From contig DASVZD010000036.1 in NCBI GenBank assembly GCA_036391815.1, positions 1 through 36,756 of the forward strand: a stretch of 36,756 nt of DNA, read 5' to 3'. This document shows, piece after piece, positions 1 to 20,156 of the stretch. This DNA comes from Rhodocyclaceae bacterium (lineage in GTDB: Bacteria > Pseudomonadota > Gammaproteobacteria > Burkholderiales > Rhodocyclaceae). Made by a program: the position numbers and the translations under genes. A model generated the notes under the pieces. That model made no database searches and was not told the origin of the DNA. It saw nothing but the letters and a program-made list of their open reading frames with translations. Every line of letters begins with the position of its first letter. The stretch's first letter is position 1.

Positions 1-1
1 G

Positions 2-3000
2 AGAGGCCGCATCCACCCCTGCCGAGACGCGCAGGATGAAACCCTTGGAGCCGGTGAAGTCGAAGTCGCCCTGGGAGTTGGCGCGCCCCGCCGGTATATG
101 GACGTTGATGTCGCCGAGCTTGAGGTCGGTCAGCCGCACCGAGCGCGGATCGAGGTTGGCGTCGAGTTGGGTGACGATGCGCAACTGTCCCGCGGGTTGC
201 TGGCTCGGGTTGTTGAACGACAGCTTGTACGGCAAGGCGGTGGCTGCCGGCACGTAGGCCGAGCCGTCAGCCGCCGCTGCGCCCTGGGGTGCGCGCACGG
301 CGATAACGGCCTGCGAGTCGACGTTCTGCTGGGCCGCCTGCTGCAGGTATTGCGTCAGGTTGAGGCTGGCGGCGGGCAGCGGATTGAACTCCGCGTCGAG
401 CAGGCCGATGTGGCGCAAGTACTCCATTTCGGCTTGGCCGCCGGCGAAGACGTCGAAGTTGAGGAAATGCGTGTCGTGCGTCGCGTTCTGATCGAAGGCG
501 GCCGGATCGGCCATGACGGGCACCGGGACCTCGACCGACTCGCCGTCGGACGTAGTGCGCGTTTCCATGTGGTCGGTCGCCACCTTGGCCGCATTCGGAT
601 CGCCCGCATACTTGGCCGTGTCCCCGTACCATTGCTGGACCTTGGCGAAGAAGCCGAGGAGATCGGCCTGGGTCTGGTAGCTCTCGCCGCTCTTCGACAG
701 CAGGATTCCGGTGGCGAGCGTGGCGTTGAGGCTCAATACCTCGGGGTTCTCGCGGATCGGAGGCGCCTGGTCGACCGGCCGCAGCAGGCCTGCGAGCTCG
801 AGCGCGCCCAGCCAGCCGTTCACCCATTGGCCTTCGTCGGCGGCGAGCACCGCGAGGCTCGACGGCGCCGTGGCATCGGCGAGGATCGCCTGACGCAACT
901 GCTTGGCATGCGCCGTCTGATCGGCGATGAATTCGTCGCGCGTGATGGGCGTCGCCGCGCCTACGATGTTGAACTGGAACGCCTCCGCCAAGGCTTCCTT
1001 CTTGGTGAGGTGCGTTTCGGGATCGGTCGACAGAAACTTCGCCGTCAGTCCCGCGGAGATGTTGTCGAGATCCTGCGGACCGCCGTCGAGCAGGCCCTGT
1101 GCCTTCCACTCGGGATGCAGGGCATACAGCTTGTCGCGCAGACCGGGGAAGTCGTAGGCCATCCATTCGGCCAGCCCCGGGTAGGTCTGGACGTTGAAGG
1201 TCATGCCGACGTAACCGTTCGCCGCCACGTCGAAAGCGTAGCCGGGCGCCAGATCGAAGCCGCTGGTGTTGTCGACGCCGTCGAGCTTGGCCCAGGGAAT
1301 GTCGGTGCGCGACATGCTGGTCGGCGTCTGGCCGTAGGTCTGGGTGTTGCCGGCCGTGTCGGTCGTCACGCCGGCGGGCCTGCCGCCGAGATTGGTGCCG
1401 AAGACGACGTAGGGCAGATTCAGGCCTTCGATCAGATCGGTGTTGTAGCCCATGTTCGACACGCCGTAGTCGAAGCGCACGTAGGGCGTGTCCACATTGG
1501 TGAGGCTCTGCAGCGACACCGAGAAGGTGTCGTTGTCGCCGGGGCCGATGTTGCGCAAGCCGCCGACGCCGATGGTCACGTCGGCTTCGATGCCGCGTTC
1601 GACGAGGTAGCGATTGGCTTCGGTGACGACCTGGCCGTCGGGATTGGCGACGCTGACGTCGTAGAGGCCGTGCGGCAGCTTGCGCATGTCGAAGACGGCA
1701 CGAATGTGGGTGGCGTCGAGGACTTGCCAGCGATCGGGCTCGACCTCATAGATGCCGGGGCGCGAGAGCTTGACCAGCGCGCCCGCCTTGAAGTGGGTGC
1801 CGTAGATGTCGAGCGTGACCCAGCGATGCGCGTCGTCCCCGGTACCGCCCTGATCCGGCGTGACCTGGGTGATCGACAGCGGCGCCAGATCGGCGCGGAT
1901 GGTGACGGGCGTCTCGGCGCCCTGGCGTGCACGCACCAGGACGTAGTAGTCGCCGGCCTGGGTGCTGGGGATCACCGCCTCCTGGTCGGCCGCGACGGGG
2001 TTGCTGTAGGCGGCGTCATAGGCGTAGGCGGTAGGAATGTCGCCGTAGCGGATGTACACCTCGTTGGAGCCGCTCTCGGCCGAGGAGTCGAGCAGCACGC
2101 GCAGGGTTTCGCCGGCGGCGACGCTGAGCTTGTAGAGCCGCGATTGGCCGGCGACCAGCGTCGTAGCGAGGGGGCTGCCCACCGTAAGCACGGGCACATG
2201 CACCTGCATGGCGTCGCCCGATGCCGTCCGGTTATTGGCTTCGCCCGGCGGCAGGTTGAGCCCGGTCGCCGTGTAGCTGATCTTGCCCTCGAAGACATCG
2301 TTATAGAGGTCCGGCCGCACGATGATGCGCCAGTTGCCGTCCTTCACGGGCGGCAGCTTGACCGTCAGGCTGCCGGTATAGCTGCCGTGCGCACCGAGAT
2401 CGCCGATATGGTCGACCTTGCCCAGCAGGACGTCGCCGAGGTCCCAGGCGTTGTCGCTGGAGAGATAGATCGCATCGGTCCAGCGGCCGTAGGCCGGGTT
2501 GATCGAGTCGTTGGTGATGGTGTAGTCGATGCGGATGTCGTCGCCGACATTCGCGCTCGCCGGCAAGGTGGCGCCGGTGACCTTGAGATCGGCCGGCGGC
2601 GGCGTCTGCACGACGATCGGCTGCGCGGCCGTGGTGGCGTTGTTCTGCTCCTTGCCGAACTCGCGCACGCGGCCGTACTCGCCGGTGCCCCAGGTGCGCG
2701 CCGGATCGGTGACGACGAAGACGTAGTACGGCCCTTCGAGGTCGCGCGGCGCCGTGACGGTGAGAGTGCCGCCATAGCTGCCGTTCGCGGCCAGTCCGCC
2801 GTTGTGCTGTATGTAGCCGAGGTAGCGGTCCTGCGAGACGTCGAGGAAGCGGTCCTTGGAGAGATAGACGAGGTCGTACCAGGAACTCTGGTCGCTCGGC
2901 GTGGCGCCGCCCGAGTTGACCACCGTATAGTTCACGGTGAACGCCTGGCCGGCAATCACTGAATCGGCGGCGGTGACCTGCGAGACCTGCAGGTCGGGCG

Positions 3001-6000: not shown

Positions 6001-9000
6001 AGCGGCCGACGGTTGCGGGCGGCAGCAGCACCTGGACGTTGCGCGTATAGCTGTCCCCGGCGGCCAGCCCACCGTCGTGGCGGTACTCGCCGATCACCCA
6101 GTCGTCGCCGTTGCCGTAGGTATCGTCGCGCGACAGGACGATGCGGTCGGTCCAGCTGCCGGTCCGGCCGGCGCCGGTGCCCTGGTTCATCACCGTCCAG
6201 CTGACGTCGAGCGGCGCCGGGTCGTCGATCACCTGGGTCGGTGCGACGATCGACGTCACGGTCAGGTCGGCATAAGGTGCAAGGTCGACCGAGAGCGCTT
6301 TCGTGCTGCGGTTGTTGGTACGGTCGTGGTCGTTGATGACCTGCCCCGCGTCGGTAACGACGACGATTTCGTAGTCGCCCGAGTAGTCGAGCGGGATCGC
6401 AACGTCCGCGCTGGCGACATAGCTGTCGCCGCTGGCGAGCGGTCCCGAATGCGCGACGTCGGCGACCTTCTTCAGCGTGCCGCCCTTGGACAGGAAAACC
6501 TGGTCAACCCAGTTGGCCGTGGCGGTGCCGCCCTGGTTGGCGATGGTCCATTCGACGTGGACGGTGGTGCCCGACTGCACCAGCGCATCGGCGCGCACGT
6601 CGGTCACGGCAAGGTCGGTGCGCGAGATGCGCACGACGTCGGTCGATGATCCCTGGTTGTTGTCCTCCGCGTTGCGCTCGAAGACAGCGTTGTCGGTGTC
6701 GGTCCGGACCACCCAGCGGAAGTCGCCTTCCCAGAACCAGGTCGGGATCGCGACGTTCACCGTGCGCTGCTGCGTCGCGCCGACATCGAGGTTATCGGTG
6801 TTGAACACGCTGGCGATCTCGTAGAGGCCGCTGGCGCCGCGATCGATGTAGATGCGGTCGCGCCAGGGTGCCACCGCGGCAGCCGCGCCGTTGTTGGCCA
6901 GCGTATACGTGACCGATGCCGTGTCGCCGGGACGCAGCATGGTGCTGCCGGTGACCGCCGAGACGGTGAGATCCGGCGTGGGGGCCAGGCCGACGCGCAT
7001 CGCGACCGGCGTCGCCGTTGCATTGTTCGCCGTCAAGCCCTTTTCGTTGACGCTGCGGTTCGAGTTCGTGTCGACGATGACGTAGAACTGGCCTTGCAGG
7101 TCCCGCGGCAGGGTGATCGTCGCCTTGCCCGTATAGCTCTGGCCGGGCGACAGCAGCCCGGCATGCGTGATCGAGCCGGCAATGACGATATCGTCGCCGC
7201 TCGGCACCGGATCGGTGGACAGAATGACCCTGTCGTTCCATAGCGCCAAGTCGGTGGTCGCGTTGCCGTCGTTGCGGACCACCCACGTGACCAGAACGTT
7301 TTCGCCGCTCATGGCCGCCTCCGGCGCAGTGACCGAAAGTGTGTTCAGGTCGCTGTAGGCTTCCGCCAAATCGATGGCATGCGCGCCGCTGACGTTGTCG
7401 GCGCGCGTGTCGGGTTCGACGACTTCCGCGCCGCTGTCGGTCTTGACCGCCAAGTAGTAGCGTCCGGCACTGCGCATCGGCACGCGTACGGACGTCGTCT
7501 GCGCGTAGGAAGCGCCCTGCGCCAGGCCGCCCGTGTGGCGGACGGTGCCGATCACCACGTCGTCGGCGTTGCCGATCGTGGTGTCAGTGCTGAAGATGAT
7601 CTGGTCGTTCCAATCGCCGGTGGCATCCGCTTGGCCATTGTTGGCGACAGTCCAGCTGACGTTCACGGGCTCGCCGCCGACGCCGGCGACATCGCCACCG
7701 ACGCTCCCCGTCCGCAAGTCGGCATAGCTGCGGCCGGCCGCCGTGCCGGCCACGGAAGCAGTGTTGTTCTTTTCGGCGTCGTTGGTCAGGTTGGTTTCGT
7801 GAAGCACGCTCACGCCACCGGCATTCTGGTCCGCACTCACTGTGATGCCGATGTCTCCCGTGCCGCGCAATCCATCCGGCAGACGGAAGGTGAAGCTGCG
7901 CTGCCGCGATTGCCCCGGAAGGATCGGGCCGTTGTTCTGGAGCGCCGGATCGTAGGGCACGCTGGTGTCGAGCAGGACCGCGTTGCTGCCGAGATTACGC
8001 ACGGTGACGCGATCGTCGAATCCCATGCCCGTCGCGCTCGCGCCCAGGTTCCAGTCTTCCCACTGGATGGTGACGAAACCGCCGGCCTGCAGGTCGGTGG
8101 TGACAAGCTGCAGGTTGCGGATCTGAAGATCGGGGCCGACGTCGCGCAGGGCTTCGACGATGTCGTTGCTCTCGCCGGTGCCGCTTGAATTGGCCTCGGC
8201 GATCTCACCGGCCGCATCTAGCACGACGCGGATGGAGAACCGCCCGGAGGCATCCACGCCCGTGGGCCAGGCGAAGCTCGTGCTGCGCTGGCGAGTTGCG
8301 CCGGCGGCCAGCGCCCCGTCTGTCAGGTCATCGCGCATGGCGACACTGGCCACCAGGGCGTTGGTGCTCAGATTGCGCACTTCGAGGCGCTCGCTCCACG
8401 GCGCCGCCACCGCTACATTGCCGCGGTTCGCCGTGTTCCAAGAGACGCTGACGGTTTCTCCGGGCTGATAGTCGCCCGCGGGAGCGAGCACGAAGTCCTC
8501 GGCGACGAGGTCGGCGTACGGCGCGAGTTCGACCGTCGCCTCGACGGTCATCGCGTTGTTGCCTTCCGCGGTGCCCGTCAGGTTGCTTTCGCGGATCAGG
8601 TTGTCGGCATCGGCCATGATGGTGAACGACAACCGACCAACCGCATTGGAACCGTCTGGCAGCCGGATCGCTGCGCTGCGCGTGCGCGATTCGCCGCTGC
8701 CGATGGCGCCGTCCTGCGCGGCATCGTAGGGAACCGTGATGTTGGCGACGAGCTTGCCGGTGTCGAGGTTGCGCACGATGATGCGGTCGTTCCAGTTGGT
8801 CGCCGTGGCGACCTGTCCGCGGTTCTCCTCCACCCAGCCGATCGTCAGCTGCTGCCCGCTTTGCAGGCCGGCGGCGGGATCGAGCGTGACGTTGTTGATC
8901 GCGAGATCCGGCGCCGGGCGTATCAGCAGGGAGTCCAGCACCACCGGCGGATTGTTCGGCACCTTGACGACGTTGAACGTCAGCGGCGGCATGCTCGCCG

Positions 9001-12000: not shown

Positions 12001-15000
12001 AGCTGACCGAGTGCAGTTGGTCCGGCGTCCCCGTTACGGTGGTTCCCAGGGTCAGTTCCTGGACCTGCTCGGTAAACTGGCGCAACTCCAAGCTGGTGCC
12101 GTTCGCGCAGGCCGTGTAGTCGCGGGACAGCGTGATGTAATAGGTGCCGGCAATCGGCGCGGCGAAGCTCCCGTAGTTCTGCTCGTTAGAGTAGGCGCCC
12201 CCGGCATAATTGCCGTTCGGCCCGTAGATATCCCAACTGCCTTCGCCCGGACTGCGATAGAAGAGGGTTTGCCCGGCATCGAGATTGACCGCGAATAGGC
12301 GCGGCCCCGTCGTCACGATGTCGGCCTCGGGGGATACGACCGAGGCATGCAAGCCGTCTTCGATGCGCAGGGAAGCGTCGATGTCGGACGAGTTCGAGTT
12401 CTCGAAGCTGATTGCGTAGTCGCCCGCCGCCAGGAAGCATGAATTCGCGTAGATGCCCGGCTCATAGATGGAGCCCGTTGCCATCTCGTCCTCGAGCCCT
12501 TGAATCCTCCAAGGCGTATAGATATAGCCCGTATCTCCCGACACCGTGACGAGCGTCGCCTGCGCGAGCGTGAAGCGATACGTCAAGCCGCCGGGCGGAA
12601 TGATCGCGTCGATCGGCGCGCTGCCGAGTTCCAAGGTGTCGCCGGGCGGCCGCGTGTCTACCGGTGGCTGTACCGAAACCGTGAACTGATAGTCCACGGG
12701 GCCGGTGTTGCCGACATCGCCATCGACCAGCAGCGTGTAGCGGCCGGACTGCGTCACGCGGATGTTGCTGTTGCCCTCCCATCCATACCATCCGACGAGG
12801 TTGTTCGCGCTGTCGAGCAACCGCCAGGCGATGTCCCCGCCCTGCACGCTGTCCAGCGTCACGGATATCTTGTCGCCGGCGACCGCGTCGAAGCGGCGTG
12901 CGACGGATTCGCTACCGCGCACCAGCGTGCCGGTCAGCGGTACGCCGACGTCCGTGGGGCCTGTCTCGGCCTGGTCGAGCGACATGAGGCGGAAGGCGAC
13001 GTCCTCGGCGGTCGCAGCCTGAGCCGACGTATCGGGACGGAAGATTCGAAGGCGGTACGTCCGGGCATCGAGTCCGATCAGCCGGGTGCCGTATTGAGTG
13101 TCCGCGGTGAAATAGCCGCTGGCGACAGTCCATTGCGAAAACGGGTCGTAAATCTCGTACCGGAAGTTCGGCGAGCCGGCAAGCGCATCGAACATCACCT
13201 GCGTGGGAGACGGCAGCGAGAACTCGAAGTCGAGACAGTCGCCCGTGGCCGGGAAGGCCGTCGTCACCACGTCGCCGAGGGACATCGATGCCGCGCCAAT
13301 GGGTTGGAGCACAAGCGAGTAGTCCACGCTCTGTCCCTCGGCGCCCCGGCCATAGAGCACCAGCACGTAGTGCCCGGCTTCCAGGTCGTCCGTATCGCGG
13401 GCAATCCCGGCGTCGACGCTCTGAAGGCGGTAGCCGTCGCGATAAAGTGCCCAACTGAGTTGCGCCGGATCAGCGGTTGCCAGGTCGACGGTTACGCGCT
13501 GAGAAGACGCGAGATCGAAGGCGTAGGCGATCGCATCGCGGCCGTCGGCTAATACGGCGCTTGCCCCAGCCGGGTCGAGCGTGGTTGCGGCATCCAGGTC
13601 GAGCAACTGGACGCGGAAGGCGGTGGCGGCGGGATTGCCGGACGCGAAGGTCAGCGTGTATTCGCCCCCGGCGACGTATTGCGCGTCCGAATAGAAGCCG
13701 CTATCGGACAGGTTCTGCCACCCTGCCGGCACCGACCCGACGGGCGTCAGCCGCCAGCGCATGCCGGCATCGGAACCCGCATTCGAAATGACGAAGCGGG
13801 CGTTGCCGGCCAGATTCAGGCGGTAGCTGCGGAATGTGTTCGGTGTGTCGATCGTTGCAGCCAGGATGTCTCCCAGCGCGGCCGATTCCGTGATCTCGGT
13901 GGCACGGGTTGCAGTGAGCGTGTAGTCGATAGCCCCGGCATTGTCGATACTGTTATCGACGACGACGATGTAATCCTTGTCCTGGGATAGGGTCGGGATT
14001 TCCAGCGCCGAAGCCGGCATAGCCGGTGCGCCGACCAGTCCGCCGTTGGAGTCGAACACCCAGAGGCGGCCACCGCTTGCGGCAGTTTCCGCCGAGATGA
14101 ACCATGAAGTGCCGGCTGCTGCAGAAAGCCGGTAGAGCGCGGCGGCATGCGTTTCCGGCAGTGTCCCAGGGCTGGCGACGCTTTCCGCCAGATCCGCCGC
14201 ATCTGCGGCATCGAGCAGGCGGAAGCCATATGCGCCTGGAACGGTATAACCCGCGCCCGTGACGGCCAGCCGGTAGTCGCCGGCGCCGAGATCGAAGATG
14301 GCCGGCGAACGCATGTCGCCGCTGCGCAACGTCGTACCCGCAGCGTTCAGCAGGGACCACGACACGCCCGTGCCCGACAGGGCATCGAAGACGACCCGGC
14401 GGGAGGCGTTCAGGGTGAAATTCCATGTGTCGGAAAGCCCCTGCGCATCAATGCTTCCGACGGCATCGGTCCCGAACGCGAGGTCGCGTTCGTGGTTTCC
14501 GGATACCGCCACGGTCAGTCCTAGGTCCACGGCGGATGTGGAAGAAATGTCGGCTGACAGAATCAGATGGTAATGACCGGCGGCGAGCGATCGGGTGTAG
14601 TCGTAGCGGCTGTCGAACGAGCCGACATAGTTGCCCGAACTGTCAAGCAGGACGCAGGAAACGCTCGCCGAGGCCGCCAGCGTGCCGAACTTGTAGCTGA
14701 AGTACTGACCGGCAGCGACATCGAATCCGAAGATGCGGGTGCGATCCGCCGGCTCCAGCGTGACTGTGGACGCACCCACCGGCAGCGCTTGCGCCGCGCT
14801 CGCCACGTCGATCATGCGGAACGCGAACGGCTTGGCGGAGAAGCTTTGCGACGAAACCTTGAGCGCATAATGACCGGCCGTGGACAATGCCATCCTGATG
14901 TCATTGGAGGCAAAGCTGCCGCTACTGACGGAGCCGGACGGTCCCGTTAGTTGCCACACGAGGTCGGGATCGCTGCCGAGGCTTTCGAACATCACGATCG

Positions 15001-18000
15001 TACGGGCCGAAATGTCGAAGCTGTACGTATTCTCCTGGGCCGGCTGATCCAACTGATCGTCGATCCGCTGACCGAGCGGCAGGGCCGCGGACTTCGAGCT
15101 GTAGGTGCGGACCGCGAGGTCGAAGTCGGGTTGATCGACCGTGCCGCCGCAATAAACCAGGTAATAGGTCCCGGCAAGGAGGTTCAGGCGATTGAGGTTG
15201 TACAAATTGCCCGACGCCTGGACCTGCCCGAGTGCGTCGTAGACCCTCCAGCTGCTGTACGGATTGACGCCGCCTGCATCGAACGCGAGTTGGCCGTTCT
15301 CGGCGAGATCGAACCGCAGATACGCTTGCGAACGATCGTTCGAGGCCAGCGACATATGTGCCGCCGTATTGAGCGGGACGGCGACGATGCTGGCGAGATC
15401 GGTGATGCGGAAATGGAAGGAACCGAAGTTGAGCGAGTCGGCCGCGACGGTGAACTCGTAGTTCCCCGCCGGCAGCCGGAACAAGCGCGGCGAGTTGGAA
15501 AGGCTGTTGCCGCTCGCCTCGCTGCCACGCGGCCCCGATAGGCTCCACGAGAAGCCGGCACCGTCCCAGCCGTCGACGAGGATCTGGGCGGGGGCCGTCA
15601 GCGTGAAGCTGTACTTGACGCTTTCTGCGGGACGCGTAGTGGTTCCGCTCATGTCTTGCCCCAGCGTCAGCACGGCGTTCGTCGACGGCTTGAGCAACAG
15701 GTTGAACTTGGCGGTGCGTCCCGCTCCAGCTTGCGAGTAGTAGCTGGACGCGGGGTAGACCAGCATCAGGTACTCGCCGGTGGCCTGCAGCGCGAAGTCC
15801 GTCGTGTCGTTGGACGTAGAGTTCGAGAACACCAGCCTGCCGTAAGGATCGACAATCTTGCAGTAGCACAGCTCGTTGGTGCCGTAATAGTAGTTTTGAC
15901 CGTCGAAGTAGTAGTGCTCTCCCGCATTCCCGTTGAAGCGATAGAGGCGCGCTTCACCGGCCGGGAGGCTGTCGTTGACCGCCTCGCCCGGGATCAGTGC
16001 GACCGCGGCGTCGCGGTCCAGCACACGGAAACGATAATCGACTGCGGTGTCCTTGGCATTGCGCAGCACTAAGGAGTACTTGCCGGGTGGAAGCGCTCCC
16101 AGTATGGAAGCGCTGGTTGCCGTCGACCATCCGGCGACCGTCCCCTTCGGCCCGCGCAGCATCCATTGCACGTTGTTGTTGCCGCCCGTCGTGTCGAGCG
16201 AGTCGAACACCAGGCTCGTCGTGCGGTCGAGCGTGAAGTCATATTCGGCCAGGCTCTGGCGTCCGGCCAGAGTACCGCTGAGCTGGTCGTCGAAGACCAA
16301 CGGCGCGATAGAACGATCCTGCTCGCTCAGGGTGAAGGTGACGTTCGTGCTGCCGGACGCATAGTAGTAGCCTTCGTTGATGAGCGTGTACGTTCCCGAC
16401 GCACCGATGCCGTACGTCGTGCCGTAGCTATCGCCGTTAACCCCGGTAACCGCTCGACCGAAGGGATCGATGAGCGTCCACAGCGACGAATAACCTGAGT
16501 CGCTCCAGTTCAGGACAAGGTTGCTGCCCGCCGTCGCTTCGAATCGATAGCCCAGCGTGGCGTTGCTTGGCGTGCGCGTGGCCGTAACCTGTTGGCCCAG
16601 CATGAGCGATGAAAATGCCGAGGCGTCGAGCAGCCGGAACGAATAGGCTCCGCTGTTCCAAAAATACGTGTTCGAGCTTCCCTTCACCGTCAGCGCATAG
16701 TCCCCGGCCGGAAGCGCCAGGACTGGATTTGAGTACGAGGCATCGCTGGTATAGAGCTGCCGCTGGTCGACTTCCGTGCCGCGCGGCCCCACCAGCGTCC
16801 AGATGGCGCTGCTGCCATTCTGGTTCTGCGTATCCATCACCAGCAGCGAATCGGCGGTGAGCGTAAAGCGGTAGGTCTTCGTGGCATCCCAGGCCGCCAT
16901 CGTTCCGGAAGCGAGGGTTCCAAAAGCAAGCGCATCGCCGGCGGGCAGCGGGGTGGGCGCCTGGTTGCCGCTGGCGTTGAATTGCACGCTGAATTCGACG
17001 GCTGCCGTATTGGCGAGCGCCCCCTCGATGAGCAGCGTATAGTCGCCGCCGGTCGTCAGGACGAAAGCGGCACGTGCGCTGGCGAGGTTGTTGCTGCCCG
17101 CAACGTCGCGGCCGTAGCGGTCGATCAGGCGCCAGGTGGCGGAGCCGCCATTGACGCTGTTGCTCTGGAAGGCGATCTTGTCTCCGGCCGCGGCGGTAAG
17201 CCGGTAGGCCAGGCTGCCATTGCCCGGGGAAAGCGTTCCGGTGACCGGCACGTCGGTCGTGATGCCGGCGGCCGAGCCGAAGTCCAGCAATCGGAAGGCG
17301 AACGAGCCGGTCGCGCTACCCTTGCCCCGAACTGTCAGGCGATAGTTGCCGGCGGGCAACGGCAGGATGCCGACGCCGGTGCCCTCGCTCTGATCGAAGC
17401 GGCGATCCGACACTTCCGTTCCGCGCGGACCCGAGAGGCTCCATTGCAGATCGGATCGATTGCTGAGGCTGTCGAAAGCCAGTTGCGTCGATGCCGCGAG
17501 GGTGAACGAGTAGACGATCGCTTGGCCGGCAGTGTCGATGTTGCCATCCGCTTCGGTTCCGTCGGCGGTGATCGACTGCAGAACGTCGGGGACTTTGTTC
17601 AGTGCGAACCGGTAGCTGACTGCCGCATCGGCGGCGTTGGCTTCGCTGCCGTCGATCACCAGCCAGTAGTCGCCCGTCGCTTGCACCGTGACCGGGTCGA
17701 CAGCAGTCATGAGCGCCTGGCTGGCCAGCTTCGTGCCAAAGGGATCGATGAGACGCCAGTTGACGCCGCCGCCGGCGACGGCGCGACCATCGAAATAGAC
17801 CTTGTCCCCGGCGGACAGCGAAACCTTATAGAGCTGCGACCCGCGGGCGTTGTCCAGCGTTGCGCTGACTTCGGCGCCGCTCGCGAGATCCTGCGCGCCC
17901 GCGGCTGTCAGAAGACGGAAGCCGTAGCTTCCCGTCGTCGCATAGCTGGCATCGACGGAAAGAGTGTAATCGCCGGCCGGCAGCAGGAAGCGCTCGAAGC

Positions 18001-19027
18001 CATTGGTGTAGCTCGTGTCATCGGACCACAGATGCCGCGAAACCTGCTGTCCCGCGGGCCCGGTGAGCGACCAGTAGAATGCGGACGAACTGAGGCTGTC
18101 GAACAATACCGGCGTCTCTTCCGACAGGGTGAACGTGTAATTGGCCGTCTTGCCCGCCTGGTCGATGTTGGCGGTGGTCGCGGTATTGAGCGCCAGGGGC
18201 GCGGTCGTATCCGAAACCGTCTGCAGATTGAACTGGTAGGACACCGGAGCGGTATTGCTGCCGGCACCCTCGACCAGCAGCAGGTATTCGCCGGTGCACT
18301 GGACCGAAAACGCATCTCGGTCCTGGGTCAGGTTTCCGGTGCCGCCTTCCTGGCGTCCGTACGGATCGATCAGGCGCCAGTCGGCATAGGGATACGAGCC
18401 GGTGCTTTGCAGCGCGCCGCCTTTGAAGTAGAACTTGTCGCCCGCAGTTGCCGAGAAGCGATAGACGTCGGTCTTGTTGCCGCCGTCCAGTGTTCCCGTA
18501 ACCGCCGTCCCGGGAGTGAGATCGGCGGCCGCATCGGCGTCGACCACCCGCAACGAATAGTCGCCGACGGCATCCTGGGATCCATCGACGGTGAGGACGT
18601 ACTTGCCGGGCGTCAATTCGAAGGCAGGCGAACTGGCGTTGTAATCGGTATTGCTGAAGCTGCGGCTCGTCACGGAGCCGGCTGGGCCGTCTAGCTTCCA
18701 GCTGAGATCGCTACGGTTGGTGAGACTGTCGAAGACGACTCGCCGCGACTCCTCGACGGTGAACTGGTACTGATCCTGTTCGCCCGGAACCCCGATGGTC
18801 CCGTTAACCGTGAGCGCGGCAGGATTCGCGTCGGAGAGCAGCACGCGCGGCTCGATGGGCTCGAACCGTACTGCTGCCGCCGGCGCCACTTGCGCCGGTT
18901 TCCTGGAAGGCTGCCTCGCAAGCCTGCCCAATTCGCCGAGGGCGCCGCGCATGGCGGAGACCAGCGGAGACAGCAAGGGGCTCTTGATCCGGTCGGGACG
19001 GTCGTTCCTGATCGATGACTTTCGCAT
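2..19027 (-). CDS. Giant repetitive surface/secreted protein; 19,026 nt (6,342 codons) are in the window and the C-terminus lies beyond the left edge; absent from the supplied ORF track
   Basis: ATG at 19027-19025 is preceded by GAGG at 19036-19033 (5-nt spacer). An in-frame TGA lies at 19069-19067 with no other start codon in between. Hand translation of the minus frame whose codon first bases sit at coordinates = 1 mod 3 gave continuous protein-like sequence from MRKSSIRNDRPDRIK... to ...GDFDFTGSKGFILRVSAGVDAAS at position 2. The same frame was recovered independently at 18865, 8911, 8515, 8134, 2998 and 118-2. None of the minus-strand ORFs the track lists between 1 and 19083 is in this frame (their start coordinates are all 0 or 2 mod 3), as expected for a stop-free frame. 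PPC-like, CARDB and IPT/TIG motifs recur with a regular period. Confidence 0.85.
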   Translation of the reverse strand, partial: MRKSSIRNDRPDRIKSPLLSPLVSAMRGALGELGRLARQPSRKPAQVAPAAAVRFEPIEPRVLLSDANPAALTVNGTIGVPGEQDQYQFTVEESRRVVFDSLTNRSDLSWKLDGPAGSVTSRSFSNTDYNASSPAFELTPGKYVLTVDGSQDAVGDYSLRVVDADAAADLTPGTAVTGTLDGGNKTDVYRFSATAGDKFYFKGGALQSTGSYPYADWRLIDPYGRQEGGTGNLTQDRDAFSVQCTGEYLLLVEGAGSNTAPVSYQFNLQTVSDTTAPLALNTATTANIDQAGKTANYTFTLSEETPVLFDSLSSSAFYWSLTGPAGQQVSRHLWSDDTSYTNGFERFLLPAGDYTLSVDASYATTGSYGFRLLTAAGAQDLASGAEVSATLDNARGSQLYKVSLSAGDKVYFDGRAVAGGGVNWRLIDPFGTKLASQALMTAVDPVTVQATGDYWLVIDGSEANAADAAVSYRFALNKVPDVLQSITADGTEADGNIDTAGQAIVYSFTLAASTQLAFDSLSNRSDLQWSLSGPRGTEVSDRRFDQSEGTGVGILPLPAGNYRLTVRGKGSATGSFAFRLLDFGSAAGITTDVPVTGTLSPGNGSLAYRLTAAAGDKIAFQSNSVNGGSATWRLIDRYGRDVAGSNNLASARAAFVLTTGGDYTLLIEGALANTAAVEFSVQFNASGNQAPTPLPAGDALAFGTLASGTMAAWDATKTYRFTLTADSLLVMDTQNQNGSSAIWTLVGPRGTEVDQRQLYTSDASYSNPVLALPAGDYALTVKGSSNTYFWNSGAYSFRLLDASAFSSLMLGQQVTATRTPSNATLGYRFEATAGSNLVLNWSDSGYSSLWTLIDPFGRAVTGVNGDSYGTTYGIGASGTYTLINEGYYYASGSTNVTFTLSEQDRSIAPLVFDDQLSGTLAGRQSLAEYDFTLDRTTSLVFDSLDTTGGNNNVQWMLRGPKGTVAGWSTATSASILGALPPGKYSLVLRNAKDTAVDYRFRVLDRDAAVALIPGEAVNDSLPAGEARLYRFNGNAGEHYYFDGQNYYYGTNELCYCKIVDPYGRLVFSNSTSNDTTDFALQATGEYLMLVYPASSYYSQAGAGRTAKFNLLLKPSTNAVLTLGQDMSGTTTRPAESVKYSFTLTAPAQILVDGWDGAGFSWSLSGPRGSEASGNSLSNSPRLFRLPAGNYEFTVAADSLNFGSFHFRITDLASIVAVPLNTAAHMSLASNDRSQAYLRFDLAENGQLAFDAGGVNPYSSWRVYDALGQVQASGNLYNLNRLNLLAGTYYLVYCGGTVDQPDFDLAVRTYSSKSAALPLGQRIDDQLDQPAQENTYSFDISARTIVMFESLGSDPDLVWQLTGPSGSVSSGSFASNDIRMALSTAGHYALKVSSQSFSAKPFAFRMIDVASAAQALPVGASTVTLEPADRTRIFGFDVAAGQYFSYKFGTLAASASVSCVLLDSSGNYVGSFDSRYDYTRSLAAGHYHLILSADISSTSAVDLGLTVAVSGNHERDLAFGTDAVGSIDAQGLSDTWNFTLNASRRVVFDALSGTGVSWSLLNAAGTTLRSGDMRSPAIFDLGAGDYRLAVTGAGYTVPGAYGFRLLDAADAADLAESVASPGTLPETHAAALYRLSAAAGTSWFISAETAASGGRLWVFDSNGGLVGAPAMPASALEIPTLSQDKDYIVVVDNSIDNAGAIDYTLTATRATEITESAALGDILAATIDTPNTFRSYRLNLAGNARFVISNAGSDAGMRWRLTPVGSVPAGWQNLSDSGFYSDAQYVAGGEYTLTFASGNPAATAFRVQLLDLDAATTLDPAGASAVLADGRDAIAYAFDLASSQRVTVDLATADPAQLSWALYRDGYRLQSVDAGIARDTDDLEAGHYVLVLYGRGAEGQSVDYSLVLQPIGAASMSLGDVVTTAFPATGDCLDFEFSLPSPTQVMFDALAGSPNFRYEIYDPFSQWTVASGYFTADTQYGTRLIGLDARTYRLRIFRPDTSAQAATAEDVAFRLMSLDQAETGPTDVGVPLTGTLVRGSESVARRFDAVAGDKISVTLDSVQGGDIAWRLLDSANNLVGWYGWEGNSNIRVTQSGRYTLLVDGDVGNTGPVDYQFTVSVQPPVDTRPPGDTLELGSAPIDAIIPPGGLTYRFTLAQATLVTVSGDTGYIYTPWRIQGLEDEMATGSIYEPGIYANSCFLAAGDYAISFENSNSSDIDASLRIEDGLHASVVSPEADIVTTGPRLFAVNLDAGQTLFYRSPGEGSWDIYGPNGNYAGGAYSNEQNYGSFAAPIAGTYYITLSRDYTACANGTSLELRQFTEQVQELTLGTTVTGTPDQLHSVSYTFSVTEGRPFLFDISRTQGWVPWSLTRDGEPVSDGYWAQTGFDWGGDSILYLDAGNYCLTTRDYEYDLTVVDLTQAEDAILGGQTAVTVAPGTCVVRRVGGQIGDSFLYAPESVNGSGNWQLLDESGNFIAGDDIGNNSACLDLPYTGSYYLVWSANPGESTAPVDYSFTLDVTAPPPAVAIPALGEPVTGTLADDGTARFSLHLEADTQIYVDALNLSSASDWQVFDNAGTFVLAGNTDSPSINRLAAGDYVLRFMGTPFSGEEVSFRVMDVQASVTAAAGDVAGTLAAGNAAIYQCTISEGQSLVFDPADFGGMTGRYAVLDANGAQRYLGYAFDTPAAVRGLPAGDYYLVLDAAADSPAASANIQFRFGGVSASAPVAMTIATGIADALDEDGTRRFSFDTDGPGLFWLEVQSGFAGTWYVEDAQGSVIASGGGNHTDGGLIRIAAAGSYTLSIAANMLPPAGNRDLALRLFDFAAAAVSISMDVRTEGTLDSASRVAVYSFDASATDVFRFISSAIDSSGVVWRLYSPSGSQILSGDASVTGGLYSLSPYGSGRYYLVIDGSASASSTIHYAFTAGTNRIALDTLYSGYASYYSPATYPIHLDQPALLVFDALKTGSFSYADYYLYWTLTGSDGQVFGTQTLYQNDPIRMLPAGDYTLKLYSNYYWYSPAYQFRIQTRTGMESVTPGTTVSGTLNPGSATKLYRLDATAGETYYFRGLQSISGAWRLFDPDGNQIFNGYSLTDQNAITLAKTGSYILSIEGSNSVTTAQSYSFAVVKPVDMGTVALNATVSDSVPGGTLRRFNLHLDQDGVLVFDSLGSNSNVNWRLEGANGVVFDRAMTSYSNTDYGMALAAGDYSLILKVSGTGTSPYSFRVLDRSGATPIVPGTPVTASVTPVNGARLFTFDAVAGERYYFDVLSSLSFDSNSTPYWSLLDPLGQRIFGSTDTGYFNYESYMLDPATGTYRYRYKLYGYDQEPAALSKTGTYTLVLEGANSRTASMPPLTFNVVKVPNNPPVVLDSLLIRPAPDLAINNVTLDPAAGLQSGQQLTIGWVEENRGQVATATNWNDRIIVRNLDTGKLVANITVPYDAAQDGAIGSGESRTRSAAIRLPDGSNAVGRLSFTIMADADNLIRESNLTGTAEGNNAMTVEATVELAPYADLVAEDFVLAPAGDYQPGETVSVSWNTANRGNVAVAAPWSERLEVRNLSTNALVASVAMRDDLTDGALAAGATRQRSTSFAWPTGVDASGRFSIRVVLDAAGEIAEANSSGTGESNDIVEALRDVGPDLQIRNLQLVTTDLQAGGFVTIQWEDWNLGASATGMGFDDRVTVRNLGSNAVLLDTSVPYDPALQNNGPILPGQSRQRSFTFRLPDGLRGTGDIGITVSADQNAGGVSVLHETNLTNDAEKNNTASVAGTAAGRSYADLRTGSVGGDVAGVGGEPVNVSWTVANNGQADATGDWNDQIIFSTDTTIGNADDVVIGTVRHTGGLAQGASYAQTTSVRVPMRSAGRYYLAVKTDSGAEVVEPDTRADNVSGAHAIDLAEAYSDLNTLSVTAPEAAMSGENVLVTWVVRNDGNATTDLALWNDRVILSTDPVPSGDDIVIAGSITHAGLLSPGQSYTGKATITLPRDLQGQFYVIVDTNSNRSVNEKGLTANNATATPVAMRVGLAPTPDLTVSAVTGSTMLRPGDTASVTYTLANNGAAAAVAPWRDRIYIDRGASGLYEIASVFNTDNLDVGATQQRTVNVAIPTWFWEGDFRWVVRTDTDNAVFERNAEDNNQGSSTDVVRISRTDLAVTDVRADALVQSGTTVHVEWTIANQGGTATANWVDQVFLSKGGTLKKVADVAHSGPLASGDSYVASADVAIPLDYSGDYEIVVVTDAGQVINDHDRTNNRSTKALSVDLAPYADLTVTSIVAPTQVIDDPAPLDVSWTVMNQGTGAGRTGSWTDRIVLSRDDTYGNGDDWVIGEYRHDGGLAAGDSYTRNVQVLLPPATVGRYKMFVVTDAKSEVFENGLEANDIARVAHDVDVMAIPYADLQVQSVTADAAAASGRPLHVTWSVINDGIGITNSAEWTDTVWLSRNPDGKDVVKQLGSFDHIGQLAVGDGYTRSADVLLPDGIEGDYYVNVRTGGPFEFIFTDNDTNRTVAVPVTLSKSPDLAVESVTLPASAQEGSVIDVSWTVVNQGEAAASGVWVDSVWLVPASGVGSPVSLGSFSYDRGLESGIRYSRTEQVRLPAKIEGLYRIKVVTNANLGGSGNQVYEHGAARSNNALLSADVTQVNLNDRPDLRVGTVTAPDHVIAGGSASVNYTIINQGAAATSGRWTDKVFLSLDATLSADDRLVGQFGNGSALAPTESYANESASVDIPITYRGDAYLIVVADGNYNVDEYPNEANNVKAAHIYVDPVPFSDLVTSDVVAPDQAIHGSSIEVRYKVANLGSATTRGIAANTNSWTDSVWLTRDRTRPSPGKGDVMIGQVTHTGNLAIGEDYLGTMQVTIPDGTLSGNYYITVWSDTYDAILEDTLATNLNPDDPHQTDNNNYKARPISVLGLTPPDLAVTEVTAPATANGGDGSYSFSYTVQNRGDVFSGAWTDSYYVSDNPDLSKAKLYWLIGSCTQNRTMANGERYTVTQTVALDPAVHGAYLVVKTDANSNVRETDESNNAGNAGSIVTAHPADLVVTSVETQPENFSGEDTTITWTVTNQGEAVWAGTRGWVDSIFISTDPTFIPDRATALGAVVHSNAEGLGAGASYTASAKVKLPPGTDGLYYIYILTDSEHSYGALSGSPNKRISREYVTSDGTLDRAGFYSASAYEGFRNDNNVSRGDLNITYREPDLQVNNISVSDPTPHSGETVTVTWTVTNYGTRETRTNTWFDGIYLSRDASLDNADYPLVDRGSEVEGKLRVSLVSLYENNKPKYLKPGESYTQSETFTLPESISGDFNIIVKTDTSTTKSYYGYVSSTVRDGLDVLDNNPNFDSVKEFKDEGNNVKSIALPITLATPPDLQVSQVTAADSVIAGQAFTVNYTVVNSGGATPSDQSSWYDLVYLSKDRFLDVSQDRYLGYIQHNGGLAANGSYGGTLTVTAPRDLEGPYYVFVVTDPARTWGTGEYGRVREFGKEQNNATTAAQPIVVQTPPPADLKVTGATLPASANVGDDIRIDYTITNDSINPAYGRWTDAIYLSSDNAWDLGDVLLGKVDHIGDLGAHGSYTGSLTVKLPPVKDGNWRIIVRPDLYNDVFEGKISYTATGLNLPPGEANNRTASGDAMQVHVPVLTVGSPLATTLVAGQSRLYKLSVAAGETLRVLLDSSAESGSNEVYIRYGDIPTAYAYDAAYSNPVAADQEAVIPSTQAGDYYVLVRARQGAETPVTIRADLAPLSITQVTPDQGGTGDDAHRWVTLDIYGTHFKAGALVKLSRPGIYEVEPDRWQVLDATHIRAVFDMRKLPHGLYDVSVANPDGQVVTEANRYLVERGIEADVTIGVGGLRNIGPGDNDTFSVSLQSLTNVDTPYVRFDYGVSNMGYNTDLIEGLNLPYVVFGTNLGGRPAGVTTDTAGNTQTYGQTPTSMSRTDIPWAKLDGVDNTSGFDLAPGYAFDVAANGYVGMTFNVQTYPGLAEWMAYDFPGLRDKLYALHPEWKAQGLLDGGPQDLDNISAGLTAKFLSTDPETHLTKKEALAEAFQFNIVGAATPITRDEFIADQTAHAKQLRQAILADATAPSSLAVLAADEGQWVNGWLGALELAGLLRPVDQAPPIRENPEVLSLNATLATGILLSKSGESYQTQADLLGFFAKVQQWYGDTAKYAGDPNAAKVATDHMETRTTSDGESVEVPVPVMADPAAFDQNATHDTHFLNFDVFAGGQAEMEYLRHIGLLDAEFNPLPAASLNLTQYLQQAAQQNVDSQAVIAVRAPQGAAAADGSAYVPAATALPYKLSFNNPSQQPAGQLRIVTQLDANLDPRSVRLTDLKLGDINVHIPAGRANSQGDFDFTGSKGFILRVSAGVDAAS
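1600..2197 (-). other. Domains inside the giant CDS: a single PPC-like domain (about 2197-1890) followed by an IPT/TIG Ig-like domain (about 1882-1600)
   Basis: Translated: LTVGSPLATTLVAGQSRLYKLSVAAGETLRVLLDS...GDYYVLVRARQGAETPVTIRADL, then ITQVTPDQGGTGDDAHRWVTLDIYGTHFKAGALVKLSRPG...THIRAVFDMRKLPHGLYDVSVANPDGQVVTEANRYLV. Family assignment is by remembered motif pattern only. Confidence 0.5.
2225..8911 (-). repeat. Protein-level tandem array of 17 CARDB-type domains (about 120-165 aa each) inside the giant CDS
   Basis: Each unit opens with [PAST]DL.V. Exact positions: PDLAINNV at 8911, ADLVAEDF at 8515, PDLQIRNL at 8134. Further units start at about 7720, 7350, 6975, 6615, 6270, 5885, 5525, 5140, 4760, 4335, 3965, 3495, 2998 and 2590. 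Each continues G....V.W.V.N.G...A...W.D.V.LS.D ... G..Y......LP....G.Y.I.V..D....V.E.....NN, the pattern I associate with Pfam CARDB. Counted by hand; boundaries are approximate. Confidence 0.65.
8960..18817 (-). repeat. Protein-level tandem array of about 16 A/B di-domain units (about 32 PPC-like, pre-peptidase C-terminal-type beta-sandwich domains of ~103 aa) inside the giant CDS
   Basis: A-type example: GTIGVPGEQDQYQFTVEESRRVVFDSL..SWKLDGPAG..GKYVLTVDG..YSLRVVDA. B-type example: GTLDGGNKTDVYRFSATAGDKFYF..DWRLIDPYG..GEYLLLVEG..YQFNLQ. The B-type W.LIDP.G codons recur near 18370, 17750, 17125, 16470 and 15850 (period about 625-650 nt). The A/B alternation held through all 16 pairs read by hand. 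The units are diverged at DNA level. Confidence 0.65.
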
Positions 19028-19112
19028 GACAGCCTCATATATAGAAGTCGCAAGAATGCCTCGGCCTCATGGCCGGCAACCAATTGCAGATAAATCGCTT
19101 ACCGCCGGACGG

Positions 19113-20063: not shown

Positions 20064-20127
20064 CTCCCCTAGTCGAACCGTCAACCCGCCCCTTTGCGGG
20101 CAGTCTCAACAGCAAATGCGGGTCACG

Positions 20128-20156
20128 ATGCTAAGCGAATATGCAATGCAGATCAA
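20128..20156 (-). promoter_or_regulatory. Candidate sigma70-type promoter upstream of the adaptor and giant gene
   Basis: Minus strand reads TTGATC (20156-20151), 17 nt, TAGCAT (20133-20128). It lies in the locally AT-richest stretch between the STAS stop (20312) and the adaptor start. Pattern match only. Confidence 0.25.

What the first reader, a model, noticed from the sequence alone, without database searches (positions are those of the whole stretch)
2..19027. The ORF track misses a single >19-kb open reading frame that fills half the window
Every ORF the track offers between 1 and 19083 is an Arg/Gly/Val- or Arg/Pro-rich shadow. The real gene is the third minus-strand frame, which has no stop in the window and therefore was not reported. 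Its start is well defined: GAGG, 5 nt, ATG at 19027, with an in-frame stop 14 codons upstream. The frame is the same at the start and at position 2. More than 6,342 codons are visible and the gene is still open at the edge, which puts it among the largest bacterial genes. An automated pipeline that requires complete ORFs, or that trusts the longest ORFs, would annotate this region with spurious antisense proteins.
Basis: seen in the sequence. Interest (0 to 1): 0.7.

Follow-up and report, generated by a model that had tools for sequence, protein, structure and literature searches.

The report
Truncated giant surface-fibre gene
Half of this contig is one real, unbroken gene: the first 6,342 codons of a giant repetitive extracellular protein whose full-length relatives in other bacteria reach 10,000 to 13,000 amino acids. 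The family is widespread and already sits in databases under generic names, but nobody has studied it.

Summary
The minus-strand frame from ATG 19027 to base 2 has 6,342 codons and no stop. The other five frames have 24 to 261 stops. GC3 is 0.84, and every domain and homology signal falls in this frame. The listed ORFs are antisense or out-of-frame shadows with no Pfam hit.

The protein has:
- a 53-aa hydrophilic leader with no signal peptide
- a LEPR-XLL motif
- 32 alternating PPC (collagenase collagen-binding-domain-like) repeats
- 17 CARDB repeats
- one further PPC domain and two beta-sandwich domains
- a strongly conserved alpha/beta core of about 300 aa with no Pfam or PDB match

The window is the whole contig, so the gene is cut by the assembly. 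Complete relatives have 12,948 aa (Undibacterium plasmid), 10,518 aa (Mesorhizobium) and 10,051 aa (Rhizobium). They continue into beta-propeller-like sequence, He_PIG, dockerin, matrixin-like and cadherin-like domains.

A HlyD-type periplasmic adaptor of about 300 aa sits next to the gene here and in most related loci. A TolC-like gene is sometimes present too.

Best reading: the proximal stalk half of an acidic extracellular fibre or adhesin, exported by an adaptor/TolC-dependent route that does not use Sec. It is a new member of a known but uncharacterised kind, of moderate interest.

The parts
2..19027 (-). Giant gene, 5' part only: 6,342 codons (674 kDa, pI 4.4, 13 Cys), cut by the end of the contig.
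   Evidence: No stop. GC3 0.84. Composition. Identical to the partial protein P0086. 58-74% identical relatives in 59 genomes.
19033..19036 (-). Shine-Dalgarno-like GAGG, 5 nt before the ATG. The in-frame TGA lies at 19067-19069.
   Evidence: Read from the sequence. The stop-free frame ends at 19066.
18869..19027 (-). Hydrophilic N-terminal leader, aa 1-53 (MRKSSIRNDRPDRIKSPLLSPLVSAM...). It has no hydrophobic core.
   Evidence: Highest Kyte-Doolittle 19-aa average in the first 80 aa is 0.99. In relatives the leader is 14-60 aa long and variable.
18833..18868 (-). LEPR-XLL motif, aa 54-65 (RFEPIEPRVLLS).
   Evidence: NCBIfam NF012209: 17.9 bits against a cut-off of 17. Nearly invariant RFEALEPRVLLSGDVNPAA in relatives.
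8969..18817 (-). 32 tandem PPC/collagen-binding-domain-like beta-sandwich repeats of about 104 aa, with A and B types alternating (aa 71-3353).
   Evidence: A self-built HMM finds 32 copies plus the Pfam-supported PPC domain at aa 5628-5711. Alternating identities of about 18% and 36%. The repeat profile matches ColG/ColH collagen-binding domains: 5iku E 3e-11, also 3jqw and 1nqd.
2276..8890 (-). 17 tandem CARDB domains (aa 3380-5584).
   Evidence: PF07705, E 4e-96. Self-built HMM finds 17 copies, mean pairwise identity 35%. Most related loci whose stored sequence spans the block also have 17.
1895..2146 (-). Single PPC domain (aa 5628-5711).
   Evidence: PF04151 at 24.5 bits, just under the gathering score of 25.9, in the window. 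Above the cut-off in orthologues.
1184..1894 (-). Two beta-sandwich domains (aa 5712-5948). The first is IPT/TIG-like by eye.
   Evidence: AF2 model: strands at residues 7-100 and 106-237, pLDDT about 85-94. Foldseek matches only Ig-like tandem domains such as integrin legs and MSCRAMMs.
308..1180 (-). Conserved alpha/beta core (aa about 5950-6240). It is the best conserved part of the family and its fold and function are unknown.
   Evidence: 58-74% identity across Beta- and Gammaproteobacteria. 1,101 library hits, 209 at E <= 1e-30. No PDB sequence hit. No Pfam hit. AF2 pLDDT 75-77, best Foldseek E 0.16.
2..247 (-). Start of a DUF7619-like beta domain (aa 6261-6342), cut by the end of the contig.
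   Evidence: PF24595 is weak in the window (15 bits) and reaches or nearly reaches its 27-bit cut-off in the orthologues scanned.
19113..20084 (-). HlyD/CzcB-type periplasmic adaptor (MFP). Its stop codon lies 85 nt upstream of the giant gene's ATG, on the same strand. The source called it as 269 aa.
   Evidence: TIGR01730: 132 bits against a cut-off of 94.9. HlyD_3 and HlyD_D23. No terminator-like site between the two genes. Orthologue directly upstream on the same strand in 21 of 34 N-terminus loci, opposite strand in 1 more, and upstream of the giant gene in all 4 look-ups that started from adaptor homologues. Downstream of the giant gene in Mesorhizobium and Rhizobium.

Best explanation
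The region encodes the N-terminal (proximal) half of a giant, acidic, cysteine-poor extracellular fibre protein. It belongs to a family defined by this order of parts: LEPR-XLL motif, a variable run of PPC-like repeats, about 17 CARDB domains, PPC, beta-sandwich domains, then a conserved alpha/beta core.

Shown:
- The gene is real and intact up to the contig end.
- About 52 consecutive beta-sandwich domains form the visible part.
- There is no Sec or Tat signal and no transmembrane segment.
- Complete relatives are 10,051-12,948 aa. After the core they run into beta-propeller-like sequence, He_PIG, dockerin, Big_2, a matrixin-like HExxH region and 8-9 cadherin-like repeats.
- A dedicated adaptor gene of about 300 aa travels with the giant gene across Alpha-, Beta- and Gammaproteobacteria.

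Inferred:
- The PPC and CARDB arrays act as a long stalk. At roughly 4 nm per domain the visible half would span on the order of 200 nm.
- The stalk holds the distal binding and possibly proteolytic modules, which are missing here, away from the cell.
- Export does not use Sec. It uses an envelope-spanning adaptor/TolC-type conduit, as type I secretion does.
- The invariant LEPR-XLL segment serves as a recognition, retention or processing site at the cell-proximal end.

The confidence given is for the whole package. That this is a real gene for part of a giant extracellular repetitive protein is about 0.95. The adhesin role plus adaptor-dependent export is about 0.45.
For: Gene reality.

Architecture.

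Conservation and collinearity:
- 59 genome loci at 58-74% identity. In nearly all of the 35 checked, the ORF is open across the whole stored locus, up to 10 kb on each side of the anchor.
- The few apparent ends are frameshifts or a single in-frame stop.
- 17 CARDB domains in most loci that span the block.
- One 4,199-column BLASTP alignment to the Undibacterium protein, and 56% identity over 3,337 columns to P0087.

Full lengths and distal domains: Undibacterium 12,948 aa. Mesorhizobium 10,518 aa and Rhizobium 10,051 aa. Niveibacterium and Polaromonas downstream parts.

Extracellular character: pI 4.4, net charge -300, 13 Cys in 6,342 aa, and no 19-aa window above 1.46 on the Kyte-Doolittle scale.

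Adaptor linkage.

TolC-like OEP gene beside the pair in 4 loci.
Against: - No inner-membrane ABC or other energising component was found next to any member.
- The adaptor is short (about 270-320 aa). It scores best as an RND/MacA-type adaptor and poorly against the type I HlyD model (24 bits against a cut-off of 209).
- Complete relatives have almost no RTX GGxGxD repeats (1 and 0).
- 12 of 34 N-terminus loci lack the adaptor. Some have too little upstream sequence to hold it, and one carries a transposase-like ORF upstream.
- The window's own C-terminal half is absent, so its distal domains are extrapolated.
- One close relative is called as only 6,670 aa inside a 189-kb contig. That is either a shorter form or a frameshift.
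- No expression or localisation data exist.
Confidence: 0.55

Rival explanations
1. The protein is a giant polymorphic-toxin or effector delivery protein used in contact-dependent antagonism. The repeats would form the delivery stalk, and a C-terminal processed toxin or protease module (not visible here) would be the payload.
For: The Undibacterium relative has N-terminal RHS/YD-like repeats (read by eye) and an internal pretoxin-HINT domain. It is followed by a small ORF that also carries PT-HINT. A matrixin-like HExxH region is shared by the Undibacterium and Mesorhizobium proteins.
Against: PT-HINT was not found in Mesorhizobium. It was also absent from the 3,300 aa after the anchor in Niveibacterium and Polaromonas. 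In Undibacterium more than 2,000 aa follow the HINT domain, which is not a terminal toxin layout. The window protein starts with LEPR-XLL, not RHS. No immunity-like gene was identified.
Confidence: 0.12
2. The protein is a scaffold for substrate capture and degradation, or a matrix protein, rather than an adhesin. The PPC domains (which usually occur on secreted peptidases) and the CARDB domains would bind polymers, and the distal matrixin-like and dockerin modules would act on them or recruit partners, in the manner of a cellulosome.
For: The PPC-like repeats match collagenase collagen-binding domains. Relatives carry Dockerin_1 and Peptidase_M10-like regions. Dockerin-bearing giant proteins are a described class (bioRxiv 10.1101/2023.11.21.568195; PMC11573180).
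Against: The matrixin hit covers only about 35 profile positions around HExxH. No cohesin partner was identified. Cadherin-like repeats (both relatives) and ice-binding-like adhesive domains (Undibacterium only) dominate the distal end, which fits adhesion.
Confidence: 0.2
3. The long ORF is not a functional gene. It would be a pseudogene remnant, an assembly chimera, or a chance open frame in high-GC DNA.
For: The contig ends inside the ORF. Several relatives in databases are broken by frameshifts.
Against: No stops against an expectation of 24 or more. GC3 of 0.84. Collinear homology along the whole length. A conserved start, leader and adaptor gene. No repeated DNA that could cause misassembly.
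Confidence: 0.02

Closest known systems
RefSeq giant proteins annotated generically: WP_162044930.1 'tandem-95 repeat protein' (Undibacterium sp. YM2 pUYM01, 12,948 aa), WP_255337275.1 and WP_326913003.1 'Ig-like domain-containing protein' (Mesorhizobium ciceri 10,518 aa, Rhizobium johnstonii 10,051 aa)
   Same: Collinear homologues. They share the PPC-like array, 16-17 CARDB domains, PPC, beta-sandwich domains and the conserved core: 62% identity (Undibacterium) and 44% (Mesorhizobium, Rhizobium) in the 742-aa anchor, and 42% over a 4,199-column alignment for Undibacterium. Mesorhizobium has the LEPR-XLL start. Mesorhizobium and Rhizobium have a homologous adaptor of about 300 aa next to the gene.
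   Different: Undibacterium starts with RHS/YD-like repeats instead of LEPR-XLL, carries PT-HINT, and has no annotated adaptor nearby. In the alphaproteobacterial loci the adaptor lies downstream, together with DUF3467 and a GAF-HlyD gene. Mesorhizobium also has a PqqD-M50-HlyD gene; the stored Rhizobium sequence ends within the GAF-HlyD gene. The number of PPC-like repeats differs: 32 here, about 17-20 there.
Type I-secreted giant repeat adhesins (LapA of Pseudomonas, MpIBP of Marinomonas, SiiE of Salmonella); comparison from my own knowledge of these systems
   Same: Very large, acidic, Cys-poor chains of beta-sandwich repeats with no N-terminal Sec signal. Ligand-binding modules sit distally. 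The gene lies next to a membrane-fusion adaptor, and sometimes a TolC-like gene.
   Different: No ABC transporter gene is seen. There are no RTX repeats in complete relatives. The adaptor is short and RND/MacA-like. The repeats are PPC and CARDB rather than BIg or the LapA type. The N-terminus is LEPR-XLL rather than a LapG-cleavable retention module.
LEPR-XLL domain-containing proteins (NCBIfam NF012209, 'LEPR-8K')
   Same: The motif passes the curated cut-off and sits near the N-terminus of a very large repetitive protein.
   Different: This family is defined by a short motif only, with no known function. The library held only two papers that mention it, both in passing.
Clostridial collagenase collagen-binding domains (ColG s3a/s3b, ColH s3; PDB 5iku, 1nqd, 3jqw)
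   Same: The profile of the 32 repeats matches these domains, best E 3e-11. The match places the repeats in the PPC family.
   Different: There are 32 copies in tandem with no catalytic collagenase module in the visible part. Collagen binding was not tested.

Membership tests
LEPR-XLL domain-containing protein (NCBIfam NF012209) | LEPRxLL-type motif near the N-terminus of a very large protein, scoring above the curated cut-off | tested here: met
   aa 54-65 score 17.9 bits against a cut-off of 17. The same motif occurs in P0087, P0090, P0126, P0138, P0146, Mesorhizobium and 24 of the N-terminus loci.
CARDB domain proteins (Pfam PF07705) | One or more CARDB domains above the gathering score | tested here: met
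   316 bits, E 4e-96, 11 separate stretches. A self-built HMM finds 17 copies.
PPC / bacterial pre-peptidase C-terminal domain (Pfam PF04151) | Match to the PPC model above the gathering score | tested here: inconclusive
   Only aa 5628-5711 hits, at 24.5 bits against a gathering score of 25.9. Orthologous positions pass at 26.8-33.6 bits. The 32 N-terminal repeats are linked to PPC through the self-built HMM and through PDB collagen-binding domains at E 3e-11, not through Pfam directly.
Type I secretion (RTX/LapA-type) adhesin | C-terminal secretion signal with RTX GGxGxD repeats | not testable with these tools
   The C-terminus is not in the window. In complete relatives the GGxGxD count is 1 (Mesorhizobium) and 0 (Rhizobium), which argues against the classical RTX type.
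Type I secretion (RTX/LapA-type) adhesin | Adjacent ABC transporter, membrane-fusion protein and TolC-like outer-membrane factor | tested here: inconclusive
   The MFP is present and conserved. A TolC-like OEP gene appears in 4 loci. No ABC gene was seen in any flank examined.
tandem-95 repeat protein (NCBI product name of the Undibacterium relative) | Tandem cadherin-like repeats of about 95 aa | tested here: not met
   No such hit in the visible 6,342 aa. In relatives these repeats lie in the last 3,000 aa or so, beyond the contig end.
Huge or giant prokaryotic proteins (5,000 aa or more; PMC11573180) | Length of at least 5,000 aa | tested here: met
   At least 6,342 aa are visible.
Polymorphic toxin systems (RHS/PT-HINT type; PMC3482391) | N-terminal trafficking domain, repeats, pretoxin/HINT processing domain, C-terminal toxin, and an immunity gene | tested here: not met
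   No RHS, HINT or toxin domain in the visible part. PT-HINT occurs only in Undibacterium and not in Mesorhizobium. The window's own C-terminus cannot be tested.

The most novel reading that the evidence does not exclude
LEPR-XLL giant proteins and their co-inherited short HlyD-type adaptor may form a dedicated, so far undescribed export and anchoring pathway for 10-13k-aa fibres that lack a signal peptide. Partner genes would vary by lineage: a TolC-like gene in some loci, and DUF3467 and GAF-HlyD in Mesorhizobium and Rhizobium, with PqqD-M50-HlyD also seen in Mesorhizobium. In this reading the invariant RFEALEPRVLLSGDVNPAA segment is the recognition or processing site. The strongly conserved alpha/beta core of about 300 aa, which has no PDB or Pfam match, would be a new functional domain (enzymatic, ligand-binding or self-processing) and the reason for the fixed 17-CARDB-PPC-core module.
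Probability: 0.3. Interest if true: 0.7.

Novelty: new member of a known kind. Interest (0 to 1): 0.4.

Why it matters
Practical side: half of this contig would be mis-annotated by any ORF step that needs a stop codon at both ends. The same gene breaks assemblies repeatedly. Many relatives end at contig edges or are split by frameshifts, so the family is under-represented and fragmented in protein databases.

Biological side: the family is widespread. The genome scan found 59 related loci, and the protein library search returned 1,101 hits, 209 of them at E <= 1e-30. Named hits span Alpha-, Beta- and Gammaproteobacteria, Cyanobacteria and Planctomycetes. It has three features that can be tested directly:
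- an almost fixed block of 17 CARDB domains
- a conserved core with no known fold
- a dedicated adaptor gene

Working out how a protein of 1 MDa or more without a signal peptide leaves the cell would add to what is known about secretion of giant adhesins.

Tried and rejected
- **Finding the source record.** Exact look-up of two neighbouring proteins and of P0086 found nothing on record. The gene could not be extended leftwards, because the window is the whole contig.
- **Full-length relatives by word-indexed search.** The search for homologous proteins with the anchor returned only fragments of 1,300 aa or less. Full-length relatives came instead from the representatives library and from the plasmid collection.
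- **C-terminus in the 59 genome loci.** None ends cleanly within 10 kb of the anchor. The apparent ends are frameshifts or a lone in-frame stop.
- **Function of the conserved core.** No PDB sequence hit. Pfam gives only a weak DUF7619 match at its end. Two AF2 models were searched with Foldseek. The 631-aa model matched only generic Ig-like tandems at TM about 0.15. The 331-aa core matched nothing better than E 0.16.
- **Flagellar type III export.** The Undibacterium gene sits beside a flagellar gene cluster. I rejected this link: an integrase-domain gene and a small PT-HINT ORF lie between them, no flagellar genes flank the N-terminal side in any locus, and Cyanobacteria also have the family.
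- **Regulatory neighbours.** The STAS and SpoIIE-PAS-GGDEF-EAL genes next to the operon are not conserved in related loci.
- **Rfam and signal scans.** No Rfam match in the window, and no promoter-like or terminator-like site in 18900-20900.
- **Literature.** 'LEPR-XLL' and 'tandem-95 repeat' gave only passing mentions, and 'giant genes' with CARDB gave nothing.
Full report
**Observation**

Translating the minus strand from the ATG at 19027 gives 6,342 codons down to base 2 with no stop. Over the same stretch the other five frames contain 24, 44, 145, 244 and 261 stops. At the lowest of those rates, the probability of an open frame this long is about 4e-11. GC by codon position is 0.61/0.49/0.84, the pattern expected of coding sequence in a 66% GC genome.

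GAGG lies at 19033-19036, followed by a 5-nt spacer and the ATG. An in-frame TGA lies at 19067-19069, and no alternative start codon lies between it and the ATG.

The ORF list omits this frame only because it does not list ORFs that run off an end. The 16 listed ORFs of 150 aa or more in 1-19083 have GC1 of 0.75-0.90 and Arg/Gly/Val/Ala-rich products. The nine largest have no Pfam hit.

**Source**

The window is the complete contig. The source's own calls for two neighbouring proteins sit on a 'longest contig' of 36,756 nt. A gene caller that allows open ends had already produced exactly this 6,342-aa partial protein (P0086). The neighbouring UbiH/UbiF hydroxylase is closest, among named hits, to Rhodocyclaceae genomes assembled from metagenomes (75-76% identity). 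The organism is therefore probably an uncultured betaproteobacterium.

**Anatomy of the visible protein** (674 kDa, pI 4.4, net charge -300, 13 Cys, no hydrophobic segment)

- **aa 1-53:** a hydrophilic leader with no signal-peptide core.
- **aa 54-65:** RFEPIEPRVLLS, which passes the NCBIfam LEPR-XLL model (17.9 bits against 17).
- **aa 71-3353:** 32 tandem repeats of about 104 aa. An HMM built from the protein itself finds them and also picks up the Pfam-supported PPC domain at aa 5628-5711. The repeats alternate between two subtypes. Their profile matches the collagen-binding domains of clostridial collagenases in the PDB (5iku, E 3e-11).
- **aa 3380-5584:** 17 CARDB domains (PF07705, E 4e-96).
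- **aa 5628-5711:** one PPC domain.
- **aa 5712-5948:** two beta-sandwich domains.
- **aa about 5950-6240:** an alpha/beta core.
- **aa 6261-6342:** the start of a DUF7619-like domain, cut by the contig end.

The repeats are only about 35% identical to each other, and there is no DNA-level tandem repeat in the gene worth noting. Repeat collapse is therefore not a concern.

**Relatives**

The last 742 aa were used as an anchor. A scan of one genome per species found 59 loci at 58-74% identity in Beta- and Gammaproteobacteria, including Methylobacter, Polaromonas, Pseudomonas, Dyella, Rhodanobacter, Massilia and Pelomonas.

In nearly all of the 35 loci checked, the frame is open across the whole stored locus, that is, up to 10 kb before and 10 kb after the anchor. 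The few apparent ends are frameshifts or a single in-frame stop followed by more open frame. Most loci whose stored sequence spans the CARDB block have exactly 17 CARDB domains. In contrast, the number of detected PPC-like repeats varies from 0 to about 34.

The representatives library gave 1,101 hits to the core, 209 of them at E <= 1e-30. The longest are 7,100-7,700 aa, and the two that were looked up are cut by contig ends.

Complete, annotated relatives turned up on plasmids:

| Organism | Length | RefSeq product name |
|---|---|---|
| Undibacterium sp. YM2 pUYM01 | 12,948 aa | tandem-95 repeat protein |
| Mesorhizobium ciceri | 10,518 aa | Ig-like domain-containing protein |
| Rhizobium johnstonii | 10,051 aa | Ig-like domain-containing protein |
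| Gloeothece PCC 7822 | 6,062 + 4,762 aa (overlapping pair) | CARDB / PKD domain-containing protein |

The window protein aligns with the Undibacterium protein in one 4,199-column BLASTP alignment (42% identity). It aligns with P0087 at 56% over 3,337 columns.

After the core, Undibacterium and Mesorhizobium run in the same order: He_PIG, dockerin, Big_9/Big_2, a matrixin-like HExxH region, then 8-9 cadherin-like repeats. Beta-propeller-like sequence follows the core in several relatives. Undibacterium also has PT-HINT and two ice-binding-like adhesive domains.

The window's gene therefore most likely continues for another 3,000-6,500 codons. One caveat: a close relative inside a 189-kb contig is called as 6,670 aa. 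That could be a shorter form or a frameshift.

**Linked gene**

An HlyD/CzcB-type periplasmic adaptor gene ends 85 nt upstream of the giant gene's ATG, on the same strand (TIGR01730, 132 bits). No terminator-like site lies between the two genes.

- Its orthologue (43-73% identity) lies directly upstream on the same strand in 21 of 34 loci that contain the N-terminus, and on the opposite strand in one more.
- It is the only conserved upstream gene.
- In all four look-ups that started from adaptor homologues and found a record, the giant gene's N-terminus follows the adaptor.
- In Mesorhizobium and Rhizobium a homologous adaptor (37% identity, E 2e-54 for Mesorhizobium) lies just downstream of the giant gene, with DUF3467 and a GAF-HlyD gene. 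Mesorhizobium also has a PqqD-M50-HlyD gene; the stored Rhizobium sequence ends within the GAF-HlyD gene.
- A TolC-like outer-membrane factor gene sits beside the pair in four loci.
- No ABC transporter gene was seen in any flank.

**N-terminus across the family**

A variable hydrophilic leader of 14-60 aa is followed by an almost invariant RFEALEPRVLLSGDVNPAA segment. There is no Sec-type or Tat-type hydrophobic core.

**The conserved core**

This is the most conserved part of the family, yet it has no PDB sequence match and no Pfam family. AlphaFold2 models built with 37 homologues reach mean pLDDT of 75-77, with helical segments above 90. Foldseek against the PDB matches only the flanking Ig-like domains, at TM about 0.15. 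For the core alone it finds nothing better than E 0.16. The function of the core is unknown.

**Interpretation**

I take as shown that this is a real gene for the first half of a giant, acidic, extracellular-type chain of about 52 beta-sandwich domains, and that it belongs to a conserved, collinear family of 10-13k-aa proteins.

I infer three further points:
- The PPC and CARDB arrays form a stalk on the order of 200 nm for the visible half, assuming about 4 nm per domain.
- The distal, missing half carries the binding and possibly proteolytic modules.
- Export is independent of Sec and depends on the co-inherited adaptor together with a TolC-like channel, in a type-I-like manner. The LEPR-XLL segment would act as a recognition, retention or processing site.

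Weak points of this reading: no inner-membrane energising partner was found, the adaptor is short and RND/MacA-like, complete relatives lack RTX repeats, and there are no experimental data.

Rival readings:
- A polymorphic-toxin-like delivery protein. The support is specific to Undibacterium and was not seen in Mesorhizobium.
- A substrate-capture or degradation scaffold.
- A non-functional ORF, which the evidence effectively excludes.

**Novelty and interest**

Giant repetitive surface proteins are a recognised class (PMC11573180; bioRxiv 10.1101/2023.11.21.568195). Members of this family already sit in RefSeq under generic names. The finding is therefore a new member of a known, uncharacterised kind.

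Three things raise it above the routine: the fixed 17-CARDB-PPC-core module, a conserved domain with no known fold, and the dedicated adaptor gene. I score interest at 0.4.

The most novel reading not excluded is a distinct export and anchoring pathway for LEPR-XLL giants, combined with a new functional core domain. I give that a probability of about 0.3 and an interest of 0.7 if true.

Noticed in passing
window 25491-29529 (-): A type I Zorya anti-phage module: zorA (27631-29529, PADLOC ZorA1 E 3e-186), zorB (26915-27634, E 2e-90) and zorC (25491 to about 26910, EH-signature, E 3e-121). No zorD is in the expected downstream position; a plus-strand DsbC gene follows instead. This could be an incomplete or variant Zorya system.
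   Followed up: partly
window 20312-20620 (-) and 20861-23524 (+): A small STAS-domain protein, and a divergently transcribed SpoIIE(PP2C)-PAS-GGDEF-EAL protein, lie directly upstream of the adaptor-giant gene pair. This looks like a partner-switching and c-di-GMP module, of the kind that often controls surface adhesins. It is not conserved next to the giant gene in other loci.
   Followed up: partly
L104 (Mesorhizobium ciceri NZ_CP088148.1 48597-53952); L103 (Rhizobium johnstonii): In Mesorhizobium the giant gene is followed by a conserved set: DUF3467, a 297-aa adaptor, a GAF-HlyD fusion (516 aa) and a PqqD-like/peptidase-M50/HlyD fusion (715 aa). Rhizobium shows the first two and the start of the third before the stored sequence ends. 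This could be a processing or export module of unknown function.
   Followed up: partly
L063/L064 (Undibacterium sp. YM2 pUYM01, NZ_AP018442.1 111808-129671): Downstream of the 12,948-aa gene lie a small PT-HINT ORF, an integrase-domain gene, and then a flagellar type III gene cluster (fliQ, fliR, an EscU/YscU-family export switch gene, flhA, flgG, flgA, flgH, flgI, flgB, flgC, fliE, fliF, fliI, flgD) on a plasmid. I judged the adjacency coincidental, but did not test it in other genomes.
   Followed up: no
L097 7553-9040: A LuxR/LuxI quorum-sensing pair lies just upstream of the adaptor-giant gene pair in one metagenomic relative.
   Followed up: no
L101 10951 onwards (JGI Ga0062442_1001097): A close relative (60% identity over the first 1,200 aa, same leader) is called as 6,670 aa in the interior of a 189-kb contig. 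That is much shorter than the 10-13k-aa relatives. It is either a real short form or a frameshift.
   Followed up: no
L060 1067-5725: A 1,552-aa PilY1-like protein lies upstream of the adaptor-giant gene pair in one relative.
   Followed up: no
output (P0001-P0085): The word-indexed protein search returned only fragments of 1,300 aa or less for this family. Some end in out-of-frame tails (for example P0001 from Chitinimonas koreensis). This shows how badly the family is fragmented, or filtered by length, in protein collections.
   Followed up: no
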